IMG/VR virus record: IMGVR_UViG_2711768000_000002
DNA length: 7,721 nucleotides
Source: a virus
Taxonomy: Duplodnaviria > Heunggongvirae > Uroviricota > Caudoviricetes
Reading direction: 5' to 3' (one strand)
Part shown: positions 1-5,255 of the stretch, piece by piece
Layout: every line of letters starts with the position of its first letter
Numbering within the stretch: position 1 is the first letter of the stretch
Translations under genes and position numbers: made by a program
The notes under the pieces: model-generated
The model's database searches: none
The model's input: the letters and a program-made list of their open reading frames with translations, nothing else
Told to the model about the DNA's origin: nothing

Positions 1-108
1 CTCCAATGACTAGTCTAAAAACTAGTATTAAGACTATCACTTATTTAAGTGATACTGGTTGTCTGGAGATTCAGGGGGCCAGTCTAGTAAGGCTGCGAGA
101 GGTGAATA

Positions 109-275
109 ATGTCGCCATCATTACGCAAGGCTGTTGCAGTTGCTATTGGTGGCGGGGCTGTTGCTATAGCATCTGTGTTAATCACTGGCCCAGGTGGTAA
201 CGATGGTCTGGAAGGTGTCAGCTACATACTATACAAAGATATCATTGGTGTATGGACTGTATGTCACGGACACAC
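109..275 (+). CDS. SAR-type phage endolysin (T4-lysozyme-like muramidase, P21 R21-like), 5' portion only; 3' end lost in the N-run
   Basis: ATG at 109 preceded by GAGAGG (97-102). Translation [55 protein letters not shown] has a Gly/Ala-rich weakly hydrophobic N-terminal segment (signal-anchor-release type) followed by the E35...D44...T50 spacing that I recall as the catalytic triad of phage P21 R21-like lysozymes. The ORF runs into N at 276. Confidence 0.85.
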
Positions 276-575
276 NNNNNNNNNNNNNNNNNNNNNNNNN
301 NNNNNNNNNNNNNNNNNNNNNNNNNNNNNNNNNNNNNNNNNNNNNNNNNNNNNNNNNNNNNNNNNNNNNNNNNNNNNNNNNNNNNNNNNNNNNNNNNNNN
401 NNNNNNNNNNNNNNNNNNNNNNNNNNNNNNNNNNNNNNNNNNNNNNNNNNNNNNNNNNNNNNNNNNNNNNNNNNNNNNNNNNNNNNNNNNNNNNNNNNNN
501 NNNNNNNNNNNNNNNNNNNNNNNNNNNNNNNNNNNNNNNNNNNNNNNNNNNNNNNNNNNNNNNNNNNNNNNNNNN
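276..575. other. Run of exactly 300 N (assembly gap or masked bases)
   Basis: Directly visible in the sequence; all ORF-track proteins containing X stretches are artefacts of this run. Confidence 0.99.
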
Positions 576-875
576 CAGCGTGATGCTGATGCACTCGATG
601 CTAAATACACGAAGGAGTTAGCTGATGCGAAAGCTGAAAATGATGCTCTTCGGCGCAAGCTTGATAATGGTGGTCGGGTGCTCGTCAAAGGAAAATGCCC
701 TGTGCCATCCTCAGCCGAAACCTCCAGCGCCTCCGGCATGGGCAATGATGCCACCGTCGAACTCTCTCCAGTTGCTGGACGAAACGTTCTCGGTATCCGG
801 GACGGAATCATCAGCGACCAGACAGCATTGAGAATGCTTCAGGAGTACATCAGGATCCAATGCCTTGGGGGGTAG
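576..875 (+). CDS. Rz: Rz-type i-spanin, C-terminal portion (5' end lies in the N-run)
   Basis: Frame-0 translation after the gap, QRDADALDAKYTKELADAKAENDALRRKL..., closely matches the lambda Rz motif (..RDVAALDAKYTKELADAKAENDALR..) as I recall it. Stop TAG at 873-875. An embedded +1 frame lipoprotein gene (Rz1) is the hallmark arrangement. Confidence 0.85.
   Translation, partial: QRDADALDAKYTKELADAKAENDALRRKLDNGGRVLVKGKCPVPSSAETSSASGMGNDATVELSPVAGRNVLGIRDGIISDQTALRMLQEYIRIQCLGG
625..831 (+). CDS. Rz1: Rz1-type o-spanin outer-membrane lipoprotein, embedded in the +1 frame of Rz
   Basis: MRKLKMMLFGASLIMVVGCSSKENALCHPQPKPPAPPAWAMMPP...: signal peptide with lipobox (VVGC), then a proline-rich segment (PKPPAPPAW) resembling lambda Rz1. 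AAGGAG at 611-616 lies 8 nt upstream of the ATG. The gene sits wholly inside Rz in another frame. Confidence 0.8.
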   Translation: MRKLKMMLFGASLIMVVGCSSKENALCHPQPKPPAPPAWAMMPPSNSLQLLDETFSVSGTESSATRQH

Positions 876-963: not shown

Positions 964-1473
964 TTAGCTAAAAAAAGGCAACACGAAGCTAAAACTACCA
1001 ACATAAAGTGCTGACCAGCTAGCAGCTGAAATCAGACTCACTGTATACACTTTCACTGGATGAAGTTGCAACATTCCTGCCACCAAAGGAGCAATATAAC
1101 GCAGCACGGCGATAAAGCGCGAAGTGAAAAGTATTGACACAGAGTTATTTTGCAACTGAAGGCGAACCCGTTCTATTGTATTGGAACGGCTTGATATTAT
1201 ACATGCAAGTTGAGGGATATGCCCAATTATTATACCAAGATGGTAATTAACGATAGTACCGCACCATGCGCCACTCATGACCGTGATTCCAGCTTCCCAT
1301 GGTGAAAGAGTCGTCTTGCTGACTGTAATTACAGTGGCCATCATAATTGATGCTGGTGGCAATATCGCCGAAATGAGTAAAGTGGATTTTGTGAACGCTA
1401 TTATAAAAAGAAGCCCCCATAGGCGATATGGATGAAGTACAAAATAGTTCATCAAAGCATTTATCCACTCCAT
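964..1473 (-). CDS. DedA-family inner membrane protein (SNARE-associated/DedA-like), AT-rich moron on the opposite strand
   Basis: Translation contains GAWCGTIVNYHLGIIIG and FTSRFIAVLRYIAPLVAGM, resembling the conserved DedA motifs (E. coli DedA GDAVNYTIGRLFG and ARFVPIVRTFAPFVAGM as I recall), plus several hydrophobic helices. The ORF track starts at a TTG (1476); I prefer the adjacent ATG (1471-1473), which has AAGGAAAG upstream on the - strand. Sampled 60-bp blocks are ~37% GC here versus ~62% in the head genes. Confidence 0.7.
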   Translation of the reverse strand: MEWINALMNYFVLHPYRLWGLLFIIAFTKSTLLISAILPPASIMMATVITVSKTTLSPWEAGITVMSGAWCGTIVNYHLGIIIGHIPQLACIISSRSNTIERVRLQLQNNSVSILFTSRFIAVLRYIAPLVAGMLQLHPVKVYTVSLISAASWSALYVGSFSFVLPFFS

Positions 1474-1526
1474 CAATGTCTTTCCTTCTGTGAATTTTTC
1501 TTTGCTATTTAACCGTGATACGACTT

Positions 1527-2435: not shown

Positions 2436-3789
2436 TTTCTGGACTATGCGGGCACGTAACAAAGTGCTTTATGGTGGTCGGTCATCGTCAAAATCATGGG
2501 ATGCCGCTGGCATTGCCATATTTCTGTCGAATAAATACACCCTGCGTTTTTGTTGTGCCCGTCAGATCCAGAATAAAATCGAAGAGTCGGTGTATACCCT
2601 GCTCAAAATTCAGATAGACAGGTTTGGTCTGCGGCACCGTTTCCGTATTCTGAACAACAAAATCATTAACCGGGTTACTGGCTCGGAATTTGTTTTTTAT
2701 GGATTATGGCGCAACATCGAAGAAATTAAGTCACTGGAGGGGATCGATGTGTTGTGGCTGGAAGAAGCCCACGCACTGACGGAATACCAGTGGAAAATTC
2801 TGGAGCCAACGATCCGTAAAGAGGGTTCGGAATGCTGGTTCATATTCAACCCCGGACTTGTTACTGATTTCGTCTGGCGCAACTTCGTTGTTGATCCGCC
2901 CGAAGGCACTCTCATCCGCAAAATTAACTATGACGAAAATCCGTTTCTGTCTGACACCATGCTTAAGGTTATCGACGCGGCGCGACGCCGTGATCCGGAT
3001 GGTTTTAAACATGTGTATGAGGGCGTTCCGGAGTCTGATGATGATGCGGCAATCATCAAACTGTCTTGGATAGAAGCCGCAGTGGATGCGCACAAAACGT
3101 TAAATTTCGAACCCAGTGGAAGAAAGCGTATTGGCTTTGACGTGGCTGACAGTGGTACAGATAAGTGCGCTAACGTTTACCGTCACGGATCCGTTGTTTT
3201 CTGGGCCGACGAATGGAAGGCCAAAGAAGATGAATTACTGAAGAGCTGCCAGCGTACTTATCAGGCGGCGCTGGAGCGTGAAGCAGATATTGTTTACGAC
3301 TCTATCGGTGTTGGTGCGTCTGCCGGTGCTAAATTCTCTGAAATTAACGCTGACCGGAAGAGCGAGAACGCATACGCGCGACGTGTGAATTACCAGAGGT
3401 TTAACGCCGGTGCTGGTGTGCATGAGCCAGATGACGAGTACAACGGCATCCCCAACAAAGACTTTTTCGCAAATCTTAAGGCTCAGGCATGGTGGCTGGT
3501 GGCTGACCGTTTCAGAAATACGTTTAACGCCATTAACAACGGAGAACAGTATCCTGTGGATGAGCTGATCAGCATAGATTCTCGTTGTCCGTTGCTTGAA
3601 AAGCTGAAACTGGAACTGACAACACCTCATCGTGATTTCGACCGTAACGGACGTGTGATGGTCGAAAGTAAAAAAGACCTCGCAAAACGCGAGATACCGT
3701 CACCAAACGTTGCTGATGCATTCATTATGGCCTTCGCGCCAATCGATACATCGCTGGATATCTGGGAACAGCTGGGGAGACAGGCCTGA
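2386..3789 (+). CDS. Phage terminase large subunit (TerL; ATPase plus nuclease)
   Basis: Walker A-like LYGGRSSSKSWD near the N-terminus, Walker B-like VLWLEEAH, and an acidic C-terminal nuclease-type region. The ORF is open from 2278; start chosen at ATG 2386 (GGAGAG at 2370-2375) so the TLNPALRSFW segment is retained. ATG 2359/2362/2368 and 2446 are alternatives. Stop TGA at 3787-3789 overlaps the portal ATG (tgATG). Confidence 0.85.
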   Translation: MTSTLTSKPTLNPALRSFWTMRARNKVLYGGRSSSKSWDAAGIAIFLSNKYTLRFCCARQIQNKIEESVYTLLKIQIDRFGLRHRFRILNNKIINRVTGSEFVFYGLWRNIEEIKSLEGIDVLWLEEAHALTEYQWKILEPTIRKEGSECWFIFNPGLVTDFVWRNFVVDPPEGTLIRKINYDENPFLSDTMLKVIDAARRRDPDGFKHVYEGVPESDDDAAIIKLSWIEAAVDAHKTLNFEPSGRKRIGFDVADSGTDKCANVYRHGSVVFWADEWKAKEDELLKSCQRTYQAALEREADIVYDSIGVGASAGAKFSEINADRKSENAYARRVNYQRFNAGAGVHEPDDEYNGIPNKDFFANLKAQAWWLVADRFRNTFNAINNGEQYPVDELISIDSRCPLLEKLKLELTTPHRDFDRNGRVMVESKKDLAKREIPSPNVADAFIMAFAPIDTSLDIWEQLGRQA

Positions 3790-5255
3790 TGGCACGAAAC
3801 AAACAAGCCCTGCGGCGAACTGTGCAGGCCACAGCTGATGGTTATGAGAATTTTATTGCCCGCGTAGGGATGCAGACACCTAACCAGCACTCAGCATCCA
3901 CCTACCGGGCTAATTTCACCAGTCGTAACCGCATGCTGGTGGAATGGTCCTATCGTTCATCCTAGATCATCGGCGAAGCAGTCGATGCTATCCCGGATGA
4001 TATGACCCGCAAAGGCATTCGCATCACTTCGGAAATTGATGCAAAAGATCGTGGCATTCTCGAATCACAACTGGATGAGTTGCAAATCTGGGATGCGCTG
4101 AATGACGTGCTGAAATGGTCGCGCCTCTACGGCGGCGCGGTGGGTTTCATCATGATTGAGGGGTAGGCACCAATGACCCCGCTGCGACCCGAAACCATCG
4201 GTAAGGGCAAGTTTAAGGGGATTCTCCCGCTCGACCGCTGGATGGTCGACCCGGCACTGACCCGCCGCATTAAAGATATGGGGCCGGACCTGGGTAAACC
4301 TGAGTTTTACGATGTGGTGACCACAGCAACGGGAATTCCTGCCTGGCGCATTCATCACAGTCGCCTGATTCGCTTTGATGGCGTCACGTTGCCATTTCAG
4401 CAGAAGATGACCGAGAACGAATGGGGAATGTCGGTTGTAGAGCGTATCTGGGATCGTCTTACCGCGTTCGACAGCGCTACTGTCGGCGCGGCGCAGCTGG
4501 TCTACAAGGCGCATTTGCGTACCTACAGCGTGGAGAAGCTACGCGAGCTTATCGCACTTGGTGGTCCTGCGTATGAAGCGTTGCTGAAGAATATCGACCT
4601 GATTCGACAGTTCCAGAGTAATGAAGGCATGACGCTCATGGACTCGCGGGATAAGTTTGAAACCCATCAGTACAGCTTCAGTGGTCTGGATGACATCCTT
4701 TCGCAGTTTGTAGAACAGATTAGTGGCGCTGTTGGTATCCCACTGGTGCGGTTGTTCGGACAGTCCCCGAAAGGATTTTCTACCGGTGATGCAGACCTTG
4801 CCAACTATTACGATCGCATCAGTTCGTTGCAGGAGAGGCGTTTACGTCTTCCGGTGCGGCGGATACTGGACATCATGCATCGTTCGGAACTTGGCAAGCC
4901 GCTGCCGGACGATTTCACGTTTGAGTTTAACCCGCTCTGGCAAATGTCTGATGTCGATCGCTCAACGGTGGCGTTAAACACCACCAACGCAATCAGTACG
5001 GCGCTGGGTGATGGTCTGATGACACTGAAAGCCGCTATGACTGATTTGCGAGAAAATTCTGACGTAACCGGCATCGGGGCATCCATTACCGACGAGGACA
5101 TCGAGAATGCCGAAGATGAAGCGCCGCCCGGCATCGGCGAACCTGATGACGAACCGCAGGAGCCGTCAGGCGGAAATCCGGTATCGAACCAGCCTACGCA
5201 GGATAGCGAGGGCGGTCGGAGACATCGTAAATGGTCGCTACGATGGTTCAAATGA
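3789..5255 (+). pseudogene. Phage portal protein gene interrupted by two in-frame TAG (amber) codons at 3963-3965 and 4164-4166; otherwise a continuous 489-codon frame
   Basis: ATG 3789 with GGGGAGA 8 nt upstream. Frame 0 translates MARNKQALRRTVQATADGYENFIARVGMQTPNQHSASTYRANFTSRNRMLVEWSYRSS*IIGEAVDAIPDDMTRKGIRITSEIDAKDRGILESQLDELQIWDALNDVLKWSRLYGGAVGFIMIEG*APMTPLRPETIGKGK... and continues as the 360-aa ORF 4173-5255. All three segments are in one frame and look coding. Its position between TerL and a MuF-like gene is the canonical portal position. Confidence 0.75.

What the first reader, a model, noticed from the sequence alone, without database searches (positions are those of the whole stretch)
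8..54. Cluster of AT-rich dyad symmetries, including an operator-like 9+2+9 palindrome, upstream of the endolysin gene
Seen directly: the palindrome GACTAGTC (8-15), ACTAGT twice (9-14 and 21-26), an imperfect 26-bp dyad (11-36, 11 of 13 pairs matching) and a 9-bp inverted repeat with a 2-bp spacer, TATCACTTA-tt-TAAGTGATA (35-54). The outer TATCAC...GTGATA halves resemble lambdoid repressor/Cro operator half-sites. Such dense symmetry in about 50 bp suggests a binding site for a dimeric HTH regulator or a structured RNA element controlling late or lysis gene expression.
Basis: seen in the sequence. Interest (0 to 1): 0.4.

Follow-up and report, generated by a model that had tools for sequence, protein, structure and literature searches.

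The report
Left end of insertion sequence IS2
The cluster of palindromes is not a phage control region: it is the well-studied left end of the mobile element IS2, carrying IS2's own promoter and repressor-binding site, which has jumped into the tail of a prophage holin gene just upstream of the endolysin gene.

Summary
They do not belong to the prophage. Window 1-86, read on the minus strand, is nucleotides 86-1 of insertion sequence IS2. It matches about 20,800 places in 4,678 of 5,426 complete E. coli genomes, many of them at 100% identity. In an annotated copy examined directly it lies immediately 5' of the IS2 transposase gene. Homology to related prophages and phages (pinholin tail and SAR endolysin) starts only at base 87.

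The 9+2+9 palindrome is IS2 nt 33-52. It straddles the inner edge of the 42-bp left inverted repeat. It contains the published docking site TAAATAA of the IS2 repressor OrfA (InsA), an HTH protein reported to dimerise. It also overlaps the weak extended -10 promoter P_IRL (TGaTAGTCT), which fires away from the endolysin gene. The 26-bp dyad and the ACTAGT repeats cover the rest of that promoter and the orfA 5' leader.

So "operator for a dimeric HTH protein" is essentially right. "Lambdoid-like operator controlling lysis genes" is wrong. In 14 IS2-group left ends the dyad is kept, with two symmetric compensatory changes. This is already known biology and of low interest. The window is bounded by IS2 on the left and IS1 on the right, and the prophage is decaying.

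The parts
1..86 (-). Left end of IS2, nt 86-1 (IS2 coordinate = 87 minus window position). The window starts 5 nt short of the orfA ATG.
   Evidence: Window 1-90 gives 20,770 matches in 4,678 of 5,426 E. coli genomes, many at 100% identity. In an annotated copy (L001) it lies directly 5' of 'IS3-like element IS2 family transposase'. In L001 the terminus TAGACTGG is fixed by a 5-bp target duplication, ATTAC.
45..86 (-). IRL, the 42-bp left terminal inverted repeat of IS2 (cleavage domain plus transposase-binding domain). Window 81-86 (TAGACT on the minus strand) is the terminal hexamer that serves as the -10 of the minicircle-junction promoter Pjunc.
   Evidence: IRL length and domains are from PMC3299598. 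The TA-3' terminus as a Pribnow box of Pjunc is from PMC3219604. Sequence.
35..54 (.). Perfect 20-bp palindrome TATCACTTA-NN-TAAGTGATA (IS2 nt 33-52): the operator of the IS2 repressor OrfA/InsA. One arm (window 46-54, IS2 33-41) is the innermost part of IRL and also occurs in IRR. The other arm (window 35-43, IS2 44-52) is its inverted copy just inside IRL.
   Evidence: IS2 39-48 is protected and TAAATAA is named as the OrfA docking site (PMC3299598). IRR carries only one copy, TTATCACTTAA. The dyad is kept in 14 IS2-group left ends, with two symmetric double changes.
41..47 (-). [quoted passage not shown]
   Evidence: PMC3299598, section 6. Sequence.
31..39 (-). TGaTAGTCT (IS2 nt 48-56): the weak extended -10 promoter P_IRL, which drives orfA/orfAB on the minus strand, away from the endolysin gene.
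   Evidence: [quoted passage not shown] A consensus -35/-10 scan finds nothing, which fits a promoter without a -35. TAGTCT is invariant or nearly so in relatives.
11..36 (.). Imperfect 26-bp dyad (IS2 nt 51-76). Its outer arms are the -10 hexamer TAGTCT and an inverted copy, AGACTA. It spans the inferred transcription start (about window 23-25) and the 5' leader.
   Evidence: The arms are 94% symmetric across 14 relatives but show no both-sided changes. The start-site position is inferred from the position of the -10.
9..26 (-). The ACTAGT...ACTAGT pair (IS2 nt 61-78), including GACTAGTC at window 8-15. As RNA on the IS2 sense strand it is predicted to form a 7-bp hairpin just 5' of the orfA Shine-Dalgarno sequence. 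No function was found in the papers read here.
   Evidence: MFE fold of IS2 1-117. 91.7% of cells are paired in 14 relatives, with no compensatory changes.
1..4 (-). GGAG, the Shine-Dalgarno sequence of IS2 orfA. The ATG lies 5 nt beyond the window edge.
   Evidence: L001 sequence and CDS start.
87..91 (+). GTAAG, the presumed right-hand copy of the 5-bp target-site duplication.
   Evidence: The uninterrupted allele reads ..gacaagcGTAAGgctgcg... IS2 made a 5-bp duplication in L001. The other copy lies outside the window, so this is inferred.
87..109 (+). The 3' remnant of the class II (pinholin) holin gene: last codons ..(R)KAARGE plus the stop TAA at 107-109, which overlaps the endolysin ATG by one base.
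   Evidence: Alignment with the intact locus L002, annotated 'class II holin family protein' followed by rrrD.
109..621 (+). SAR endolysin gene (rrrD-like). Bases 276-575 are masked as N in the window.
   Evidence: annotated lysozyme RrrD / SAR endolysin in the hits.

Best explanation
Window 1-86 is the left end of a copy of insertion sequence IS2 (IS3 family). It has inserted, with its transposase genes on the minus strand, into the last codons of a prophage pinholin gene, 22 bp upstream of the SAR endolysin start codon. The symmetries are IS2's own control region. The perfect 20-bp palindrome (IS2 nt 33-52) straddles the inner boundary of the left inverted repeat. One arm is the transposase-binding block shared with the right inverted repeat. 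The other arm is an inverted copy that overlaps the TG and the first bases of the weak extended -10 promoter P_IRL (TGaTAGTCT). The small IS2 protein OrfA/InsA (N-terminal HTH, coiled-coil dimerisation region) binds here. By occupying the site it shuts off P_IRL and competes with the OrfAB transposase for IRL, which keeps transposition low. The remaining dyads (TAGTCT/AGACTA and ACTAGT twice) lie over the -10 hexamer, the transcription start and the 28-nt leader of orfA. Shown by others: OrfA binding and footprint at nt 39-48, P_IRL at nt 48-56, and Pjunc formed from the IRL terminus. Shown here: identity of the window with IS2, the breakpoint at 86/87, and conservation of the dyad among relatives. 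Inferred: that an OrfA dimer reads the two arms as half-sites; that the copy is full length, with the window breaking at a repeat; and that the element has no role in controlling lysis genes.
For: Window 1-90 matches 20,770 places in 4,678 of 5,426 complete E. coli genomes (3,725 of them on plasmids), many at 100% identity and in unrelated contexts. In L001 the match abuts the start of the annotated IS2 transposase, and the element has 5-bp direct repeats. Prophage and phage homology starts at window 86-87 in every listed phage hit and nearly all listed genome hits. The intact allele shows the insertion point inside the holin tail. The literature, using the same numbering, gives IRL as 42 bp, nt 39-48 as protected, TAAATAA as the OrfA docking site, and TGAT 48-51 as the start of the extended -10 P_IRL (PMC3299598). 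It also gives an OrfA HTH and a dimerisation region at residues 58-105 (PMC3219604), and Pfam finds HTH_Tnp_1 at E=1.8e-19. IRR holds only the single half-site TTATCACTTAA. In relatives with 82-95% OrfA identity the dyad stays at the same place, abutting TAGTCT. The Aeromonas element has CCTCTTAA-c-TTAAGAGG, with T.A to C.G and A.T to T.A changes on both arms.
Against: The window holds only 86 nt of the element, so a full-length IS2 and the second copy of the target duplication cannot be seen. The primary papers on InsA binding (Hu 1994; Lei & Hu 1997) and on P_IRL (Lewis 2004) were not available. The operator assignment therefore rests on a later paper that cites them, and that paper describes a 7-10-bp site, not the whole dyad. 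Conservation of the two arms is confounded. One arm is also part of the transposase-binding domain of IRL and the other overlaps the promoter. Symmetric covariation would equally fit a DNA or RNA hairpin. In ISEc27-like and Rahnella relatives the centre of the dyad varies in sequence or is 1 nt shorter.
Confidence: 0.93

Rival explanations
1. A prophage operator, related to lambdoid CI/Cro operators, that regulates late or lysis gene expression upstream of the endolysin.
For: The outer hexamers TATCAC/GTGATA equal the outer part of the lambda operator half-site consensus (established knowledge). The site lies 55-74 nt upstream of the endolysin ATG.
Against: The sequence is absent from all related phages and prophages, whose homology starts at window 87. 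It is present in thousands of non-phage contexts as part of IS2. There is one site only, with no second copy or half-site elsewhere in the window. The site is 20 bp rather than 17 bp. It lies in the lysis region, not in an immunity region.
Confidence: 0.01
2. The dyads act mainly as RNA structure on the IS2 sense strand. In transcripts that enter from outside or start at the junction promoter, two hairpins (IS2 33-52 and 61-78) scaffold a pairing of IRL nt 19-23 (CUCCA) with the orfA Shine-Dalgarno sequence (UGGAG, nt 82-86). This silences translation, whereas the short P_IRL transcript escapes. The logic is the same as described for IS10 and IS50 (established knowledge).
For: The MFE and centroid folds of IS2 1-117 contain exactly these three helices, with z = -2.3. 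The isolated 20-mer hairpin has z = -3.3 on the IS2 strand. Both-sided changes keep pairing in the 33-52 helix.
Against: The hairpins are AT-rich and weak, at about -7 kcal/mol. The SD pairing holds in only 80% of cells and is lost in the Aeromonas and RM10740 elements. The 61-78 helix shows no compensatory changes. There is no Rfam family. The junction-promoter transcript, which must be translated, would also carry the inhibitory pairing. The covariation is explained equally well by a symmetric protein site.
Confidence: 0.15
3. The palindrome serves transposition chemistry rather than repression. It would be an extended binding or bending site for the OrfAB transposase, or for a host factor, that makes IRL the recipient (target) end in figure-of-eight formation.
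For: OrfAB-GFP itself strongly protects nt 39-48 of IRL but gives a different pattern at the inner end of IRR (PMC3299598). The second arm exists only at IRL.
Against: The same paper attributes that protection to the site where OrfA competes. The preparations used were mixtures of OrfA and OrfAB. This reading complements the operator explanation rather than excluding it.
Confidence: 0.25
4. Chance clustering of short palindromes in AT-rich intergenic DNA.
For: One perfect 9-nt-arm inverted repeat somewhere in a 7.4-kb shuffled window occurs in 22% of shuffles.
Against: The frequency is 0.56% in the local 86 nt. The block is conserved, many copies at 100% identity, in about 20,000 copies, and nt 47-80 are nearly invariant in relatives whose coding DNA is only about 83% identical.
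Confidence: 0.01

Closest known systems
IS2 (IS3 family, IS2 group) left end: IRL, OrfA/InsA operator and promoter P_IRL
   Same: Window 1-86 is identical to annotated IS2 copies, apart from a common polymorphism: G instead of A at IS2 nt 31, window 56. IRL, the TAAATAA docking site, the extended -10 TGaTAGTCT and the orfA SD are all in their published positions (PMC3299598).
   Different: Nothing in the sequence itself differs. Only the insertion site is particular, in the tail of a pinholin gene. None of the 5,426 complete E. coli genomes searched has IS2 at this junction.
Lambda-type CI/Cro operators (OR/OL)
   Same: A dyad-symmetric site for a dimeric HTH repressor that overlaps a promoter, with outer hexamers TATCAC...GTGATA.
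   Different: The site is 20 bp rather than 17 bp. It is a single site rather than a tandem triplet. It lies in an insertion sequence rather than an immunity region. The bound protein is a transposase-derived HTH_Tnp_1 protein rather than a CI/Cro fold. The resemblance is a 6-mer coincidence.
IS1 InsA and the truncated IS30 transposase: autorepression by binding to a terminal inverted repeat that overlaps the transposase promoter
   Same: A small protein that shares the transposase's DNA-binding domain sits on the left end, represses the resident promoter and competes with the transposase (PMC3299598 for IS30; PMC8944449 and PMC12428005 for IS1 InsA).
   Different: The IS families and folds differ. 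In IS2 the site is a subterminal palindrome made of the inner IR block plus an inverted copy. According to PMC3299598, the OrfA of the related IS911 does not act as a repressor.
ISEc27-like and other IS2-group elements (Klebsiella, Citrobacter, Rahnella, Providencia, Aeromonas; the E. coli RM10740 element)
   Same: The same left-end architecture: terminal TAGACTGGCCCC, a dyad abutting a TAGTCT-like hexamer, then a leader containing ACTAGT. The RM10740 element also sits in the tail of a class II holin gene, in the same orientation.
   Different: The centre of the dyad varies (TAAGTT, TAAATT, or 1 nt shorter). In the Aeromonas element the arms have changed symmetrically.

Membership tests
IS2 (IS3 family) left end | Terminal sequence of IRL (5'-TAGACTGGCCCCCTGAATCTCCAGACAACCA.TATCACTTAA, 42 bp) at a sharp boundary with unrelated flanking DNA | tested here: met
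   Window 45-86 on the minus strand. It is identical to L001, whose end is fixed by the 5-bp repeats ATTAC. The homology breakpoint with prophage DNA is at 86/87.
IS2 (IS3 family) left end | Multi-copy, context-independent occurrence adjacent to the IS2 orfA/orfAB genes | tested here: met
   20,770 places with a median of 3 per genome, on chromosomes and plasmids. Annotated 'IS3-like element IS2 family transposase, programmed frameshift' starts 6 nt beyond the match.
IS2 (IS3 family) left end | orfA and orfB with a -1 frameshift, the right inverted repeat, and a 5-bp target duplication at both ends of this particular copy | not testable with these tools
   The window ends at IS2 nt 86, so the body of the element and the other junction are not in the data. 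GTAAG at 87-91 occurs once in the intact allele, which is consistent with a target duplication.
OrfA/InsA operator overlapping P_IRL | The sequence at IS2 nt 39-56 (TTAAATAAGTGATAGTCT) identical to the experimentally footprinted site and extended -10 promoter | tested here: met
   Window 31-48 on the minus strand reads exactly this. Positions as given in PMC3299598.
OrfA/InsA operator overlapping P_IRL | Binding by OrfA and repression of transcription | not testable with these tools
   Taken from the literature (Hu 1994 and Lei & Hu 1997, as cited in PMC3299598). The primary papers were not available.
Lambdoid CI/Cro operator | A 17-bp pseudo-symmetric site | tested here: not met
   The site is 20 bp, so the TATCAC and GTGATA hexamers are 3 bp further apart. 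The lambda consensus is taken from established knowledge.
Lambdoid CI/Cro operator | Several tandem sites next to a repressor gene in the immunity region, conserved among related phages | tested here: not met
   There is a single site, with no other copy or half-site in the window. It is absent from related phages and prophages. It lies between holin and endolysin remnants.
Known structured RNA family (Rfam) | A match to a curated covariance model | tested here: not met
   No match with E of 1 or less in window 1-275 on either strand.

The most novel reading that the evidence does not exclude
Two small points are not excluded and were not found in the papers I could read. (1) The real OrfA operator may be the whole 20-bp dyad, read by an OrfA dimer that uses the same half-site the transposase reads at both ends. 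Its 2-nt centre exists in two mirror states (AA and TT) within single genomes, as if the centre were flipped by hairpin-mediated micro-inversion. (2) The two hairpins, together with a pairing of IRL nt 19-23 with the orfA Shine-Dalgarno sequence, may silence translation of transcripts that read into IS2 from outside.
Probability: 0.2. Interest if true: 0.25.

Novelty: already known. Interest (0 to 1): 0.07.

Why it matters
It matters mainly as a correction. A feature that looks like a phage lysis operator is in fact the promoter and operator end of an insertion sequence, so it says nothing about how this prophage controls lysis. For annotating this locus, the useful facts are these. The pinholin gene is disrupted 5 codons from its end. 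The endolysin gene is separated from its operon by a presumed 1.3-kb IS2, read antisense. The portal gene carries stop codons. An IS1 bounds the fragment on the other side. Together these describe a decaying prophage in an IS-rich genome. The IS2 left end itself has been studied since the 1980s and 1990s.

Tried and rejected
(1) Lambdoid-operator idea. I searched the window for further copies of the 20-mer (up to 3 mismatches) and of the half-site (up to 1 mismatch). None was found beyond the two arms themselves, and related phages lack the sequence. Rejected.

(2) Consensus sigma-70 promoter and intrinsic-terminator scan of 1-275. There were no hits. This does not detect extended -10 promoters, so it is uninformative about P_IRL, but it argues against an outward promoter or terminator acting on the endolysin.

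(3) Rfam scan of 1-275 at E of 1 or less. Nothing.

(4) RNA folding of both strands. The hairpins are modest (z -1.6 to -3.3). They are not enough to prefer an RNA role over the documented protein site.

(5) Reading the primary papers (PMC179535, PMC321474). They are not held in the library.

(6) Looking for the same IS2-holin junction in complete E. coli genomes. None was found. The four records covering at least 80% of window 1-275 are IS2 upstream of essD or, in RM10740, a different IS3-family element.

(7) Covariation test for the second dyad. It is conserved but shows no both-sided changes, so the test is uninformative.

(8) I considered that the fragment might be a solo IS2 end. The data cannot exclude this. 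However, the window also ends 83 nt into an IS1, which is the pattern expected of an assembly broken at repeated, complete IS copies.

Full report
**Observation.** The first 60 bases of the window read ctccaatGACTAGTCtaaaaACTAGTattaagacTATCACTTAttTAAGTGATActggtt.
- GACTAGTC at 8-15.
- ACTAGT at 9-14 and 21-26.
- An imperfect palindrome spanning 11-36.
- A perfect 9-bp inverted repeat with a 2-bp spacer at 35-54.

The 9+2+9 repeat is the only perfect inverted repeat of that size in the window. A repeat of that kind appears somewhere in 22% of shuffled windows, but in only 0.56% of shuffles of the local 86 nt. The full 20-mer pattern never appears in 200 shuffles.

**What it is.** A megablast of window 1-275 against 5,426 complete E. 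coli genomes returned 25,860 places, including 3,740 on plasmids. That is the signature of a mobile element.
- The listed phage hits, and nearly all listed genome hits, to the holin/endolysin region begin at window base 86-87.
- Window 1-90 alone gives 20,770 places in 4,678 genomes, many at 100% identity, inside unrelated genes.
- In one such place (L001) the match lies directly upstream of the CDS annotated 'IS3-like element IS2 family transposase, programmed frameshift'. The ATG is 6 nt beyond window position 1.
- That copy is flanked by a 5-bp direct repeat, ATTAC. This fixes the IS2 terminus at TAGACTGG, which corresponds to window base 86.

Window 1-86, read on the minus strand, is therefore IS2 nucleotides 86 to 1 (IS2 coordinate = 87 minus window position). 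The only difference from the canonical sequence is a common polymorphism, G for A at IS2 nt 31.

**Where it sits.** In an uninterrupted, 99.5%-identical prophage (L002) the sequence is ..ttcaaaataagagaagacaagcGTAAGgctgcgagaggtgaaTAATG. This is the end of a 71-codon class II holin (pinholin) gene, whose stop overlaps the start of rrrD, a SAR endolysin. In the window, IS2 ends immediately before GTAAG (87-91).
- The element is therefore inserted in the holin tail, 22 bp upstream of the endolysin ATG at 109.
- Its transposase genes point away from the endolysin.
- GTAAG is presumably one copy of the 5-bp target duplication. The other copy lies outside the window.
- No complete E. coli genome in the collection has IS2 at this junction.
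- Strain RM10740 has a different IS3-family element in the same holin tail, in the same orientation.

**Mapping the symmetries onto published IS2 anatomy.** Lewis et al. 2012 (PMC3299598) use the same numbering and give the following:
- IRL is 42 bp.
[quoted passage not shown] The docking site is TAAATAA. This cites Hu et al. 1994 and Lei & Hu 1997.
- TGAT at 48-51 is the start of the weak extended -10 promoter P_IRL, which drives orfA/orfAB.

In window coordinates:
- IRL is 45-86.
- TAAATAA is 41-47 (minus strand).
- TGaTAGTCT is 31-39 (minus strand).
- The 20-bp palindrome (IS2 33-52) is centred on the OrfA docking site. It spans the IRL inner boundary and overlaps the TG and the first two bases of the -10 hexamer.
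It spans the inferred transcription start.
- The ACTAGT pair and GACTAGTC lie in the 28-nt orfA leader, just 5' of the Shine-Dalgarno GGAG (window 1-4).
- The IRL terminus TAGACT (window 81-86) is the Pribnow box of the junction promoter formed in IS2 minicircles (PMC3219604).

**Mechanism.** OrfA carries an N-terminal HTH (Pfam HTH_Tnp_1, E=1.8e-19). It also has a dimerisation region at residues 58-105 (Lei & Hu, as cited in PMC3219604). The IS2 right end carries a single copy of the block TTATCACTTAA, whereas the left end has that block followed by its inverted copy. The RM10740 element shows the same arrangement with its own half-site: TGTATCTTAA at both ends, plus an imperfect inverted copy at the left end.

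The most economical reading is as follows. The HTH shared by OrfA and OrfAB recognises TATCACTTA. At the left end, two such half-sites in inverted orientation allow an OrfA dimer to sit over the promoter. Bound there, it blocks RNA polymerase and competes with the transposase. The binding and repression are taken from the literature. Dimer-on-dyad recognition is my inference.

**Test with relatives.** I collected left ends from IS2-group elements whose OrfA is 82-95% identical. I aligned 14 distinct ones.
- The stretch IS2 47-80 is nearly invariant, even where the surrounding DNA is only about 83% identical.
- The core of the dyad (five pairs) stays symmetric in 13-14 of 14 sequences.
- Two positions change on both arms together: T.A to C.G in Aeromonas, and A.T to T.A in Aeromonas and RM10740. 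The Aeromonas site is CCTCTTAA-c-TTAAGAGG.
- No shuffle reached the observed covariation score.
- The sample is small. Symmetric covariation cannot separate a protein dyad from a hairpin.
- The centre of the dyad varies (TAAGTT, TAAATT, or 1 nt shorter in Rahnella).
- The second dyad is conserved but shows no informative changes.

**RNA alternative.** On the IS2 sense strand the 20-mer folds to a hairpin of -7.6 kcal/mol (z = -3.3). The whole 117-nt left end folds (z = -2.3) into two hairpins plus a pairing of IRL nt 19-23 with the Shine-Dalgarno sequence. This recalls the protection against read-through transcripts known for IS10 and IS50. Several points count against it:
- The Shine-Dalgarno pairing is only 80% conserved.
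- The main promoter starts downstream of the first hairpin.
- Rfam has nothing there.

I keep it as a minor rival.

The guess 'binding site for a dimeric HTH regulator' is essentially right. The attribution to the prophage, to lysis control and to lambdoid operators is wrong:
- The site is absent from related phages.
- It is unique in the window.
- It is 20 bp, not 17 bp.
- It controls a promoter on the opposite strand.

**Consequences for the locus (inferred).** The holin loses its last five residues and would read into IS2. The endolysin keeps its own ribosome-binding site but is separated from the late operon by the presumed 1.3-kb IS2, which is read antisense. No promoter-like or terminator-like site facing the endolysin was found.

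**Context.**
- The window ends (7639-7721) with the first 83 nt of IS1. The 7.7-kb piece is therefore bounded by two insertion sequences, as expected for a short-read contig broken at repeats.
- Between them lie Rz1 and a minus-strand DedA-family gene.
- These are followed by the large terminase, portal, Mu-F-like head morphogenesis protein, DUF2213 and cement protein genes.
- The portal reading frame has two in-frame stop codons.
- A 99.8%-identical prophage with an intact holin-endolysin junction exists in E. coli FDAARGOS_944 and VL40.

**Verdict.** The feature is the already-known left end of IS2. Interest is low.

Noticed in passing
window 7639-7721: The window ends with the first 83 nt of IS1 (GGTGATGCTGCCAACTTACTGATTTAGTG...), which matches about 73,000 places in E. 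coli genomes. Prophage homology stops at 7638. The fragment is thus bounded by IS2 on the left and IS1 on the right, probably a contig broken at repeats in an IS-rich (Shigella-like) genome.
   Followed up: yes
window 44-45 (spacer of the palindrome); loci L011-L073: Among true IS2 copies the 2-nt spacer of the 20-bp palindrome occurs as AA or TT, read in IS2 orientation. The TT form is the exact reverse complement of the whole 20-mer. Both states coexist within S. flexneri SFBU1023 (3 AA, 21 TT) and E. coli ECMA0423 (2 AA, 18 TT), and all four combinations with a linked A/T site at IS2 nt 87 are seen. This looks like a flip of the hairpin centre or gene conversion. The window's copy is AA.
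   Followed up: partly
window 3789-5255: The portal (DUF1073 / Phage_portal_3) reading frame carries two in-frame stop codons (codons 59 and 126). A 99.8%-identical prophage has an intact 489-codon gene. This points to prophage decay or to sequencing errors.
   Followed up: partly
window 964-1476, minus strand: A 170-aa DedA-family / VTT-domain membrane protein gene lies antisense between the lysis genes and the terminase genes. It looks like a moron and is also annotated in the related prophage of FDAARGOS_943.
   Followed up: no
window 276-575: 300 bases inside the endolysin gene are masked as N. The 109-621 ORF listed by the ORF finder runs through them, so it cannot be checked for integrity.
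   Followed up: no
L010 (E. coli RM10740) 200-1600: A different IS3-family element (left end TGAGCTGGCCCCCTGAAATACC...) sits in the tail of the homologous class II holin gene, in the same orientation. About 10 bp (ctgcgagagg) appear duplicated at its two ends. This may be an insertion hot spot for IS2-group elements and an unusually long target duplication.
   Followed up: partly
L048, L051, L056, L074, L077: Perfect or near-perfect IS2 or ISEc27-like copies occur on tiny contigs in assemblies labelled Streptosporangium, Paenisporosarcina, Lamprocystis, Brevibacterium and a Collinsella MAG. These are most likely E. coli or cloning-host contamination of those assemblies.
   Followed up: no
L001 1970-2086 minus strand (IS2 nt 1-117); window 64-68 and 1-5: In the predicted fold of the IS2 left-end RNA, IRL nt 19-23 (CUCCA) pair with the orfA Shine-Dalgarno sequence (UGGAG, nt 82-86). 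This could sequester the ribosome-binding site in transcripts that enter from outside. Conservation among relatives is only 80%.
   Followed up: partly
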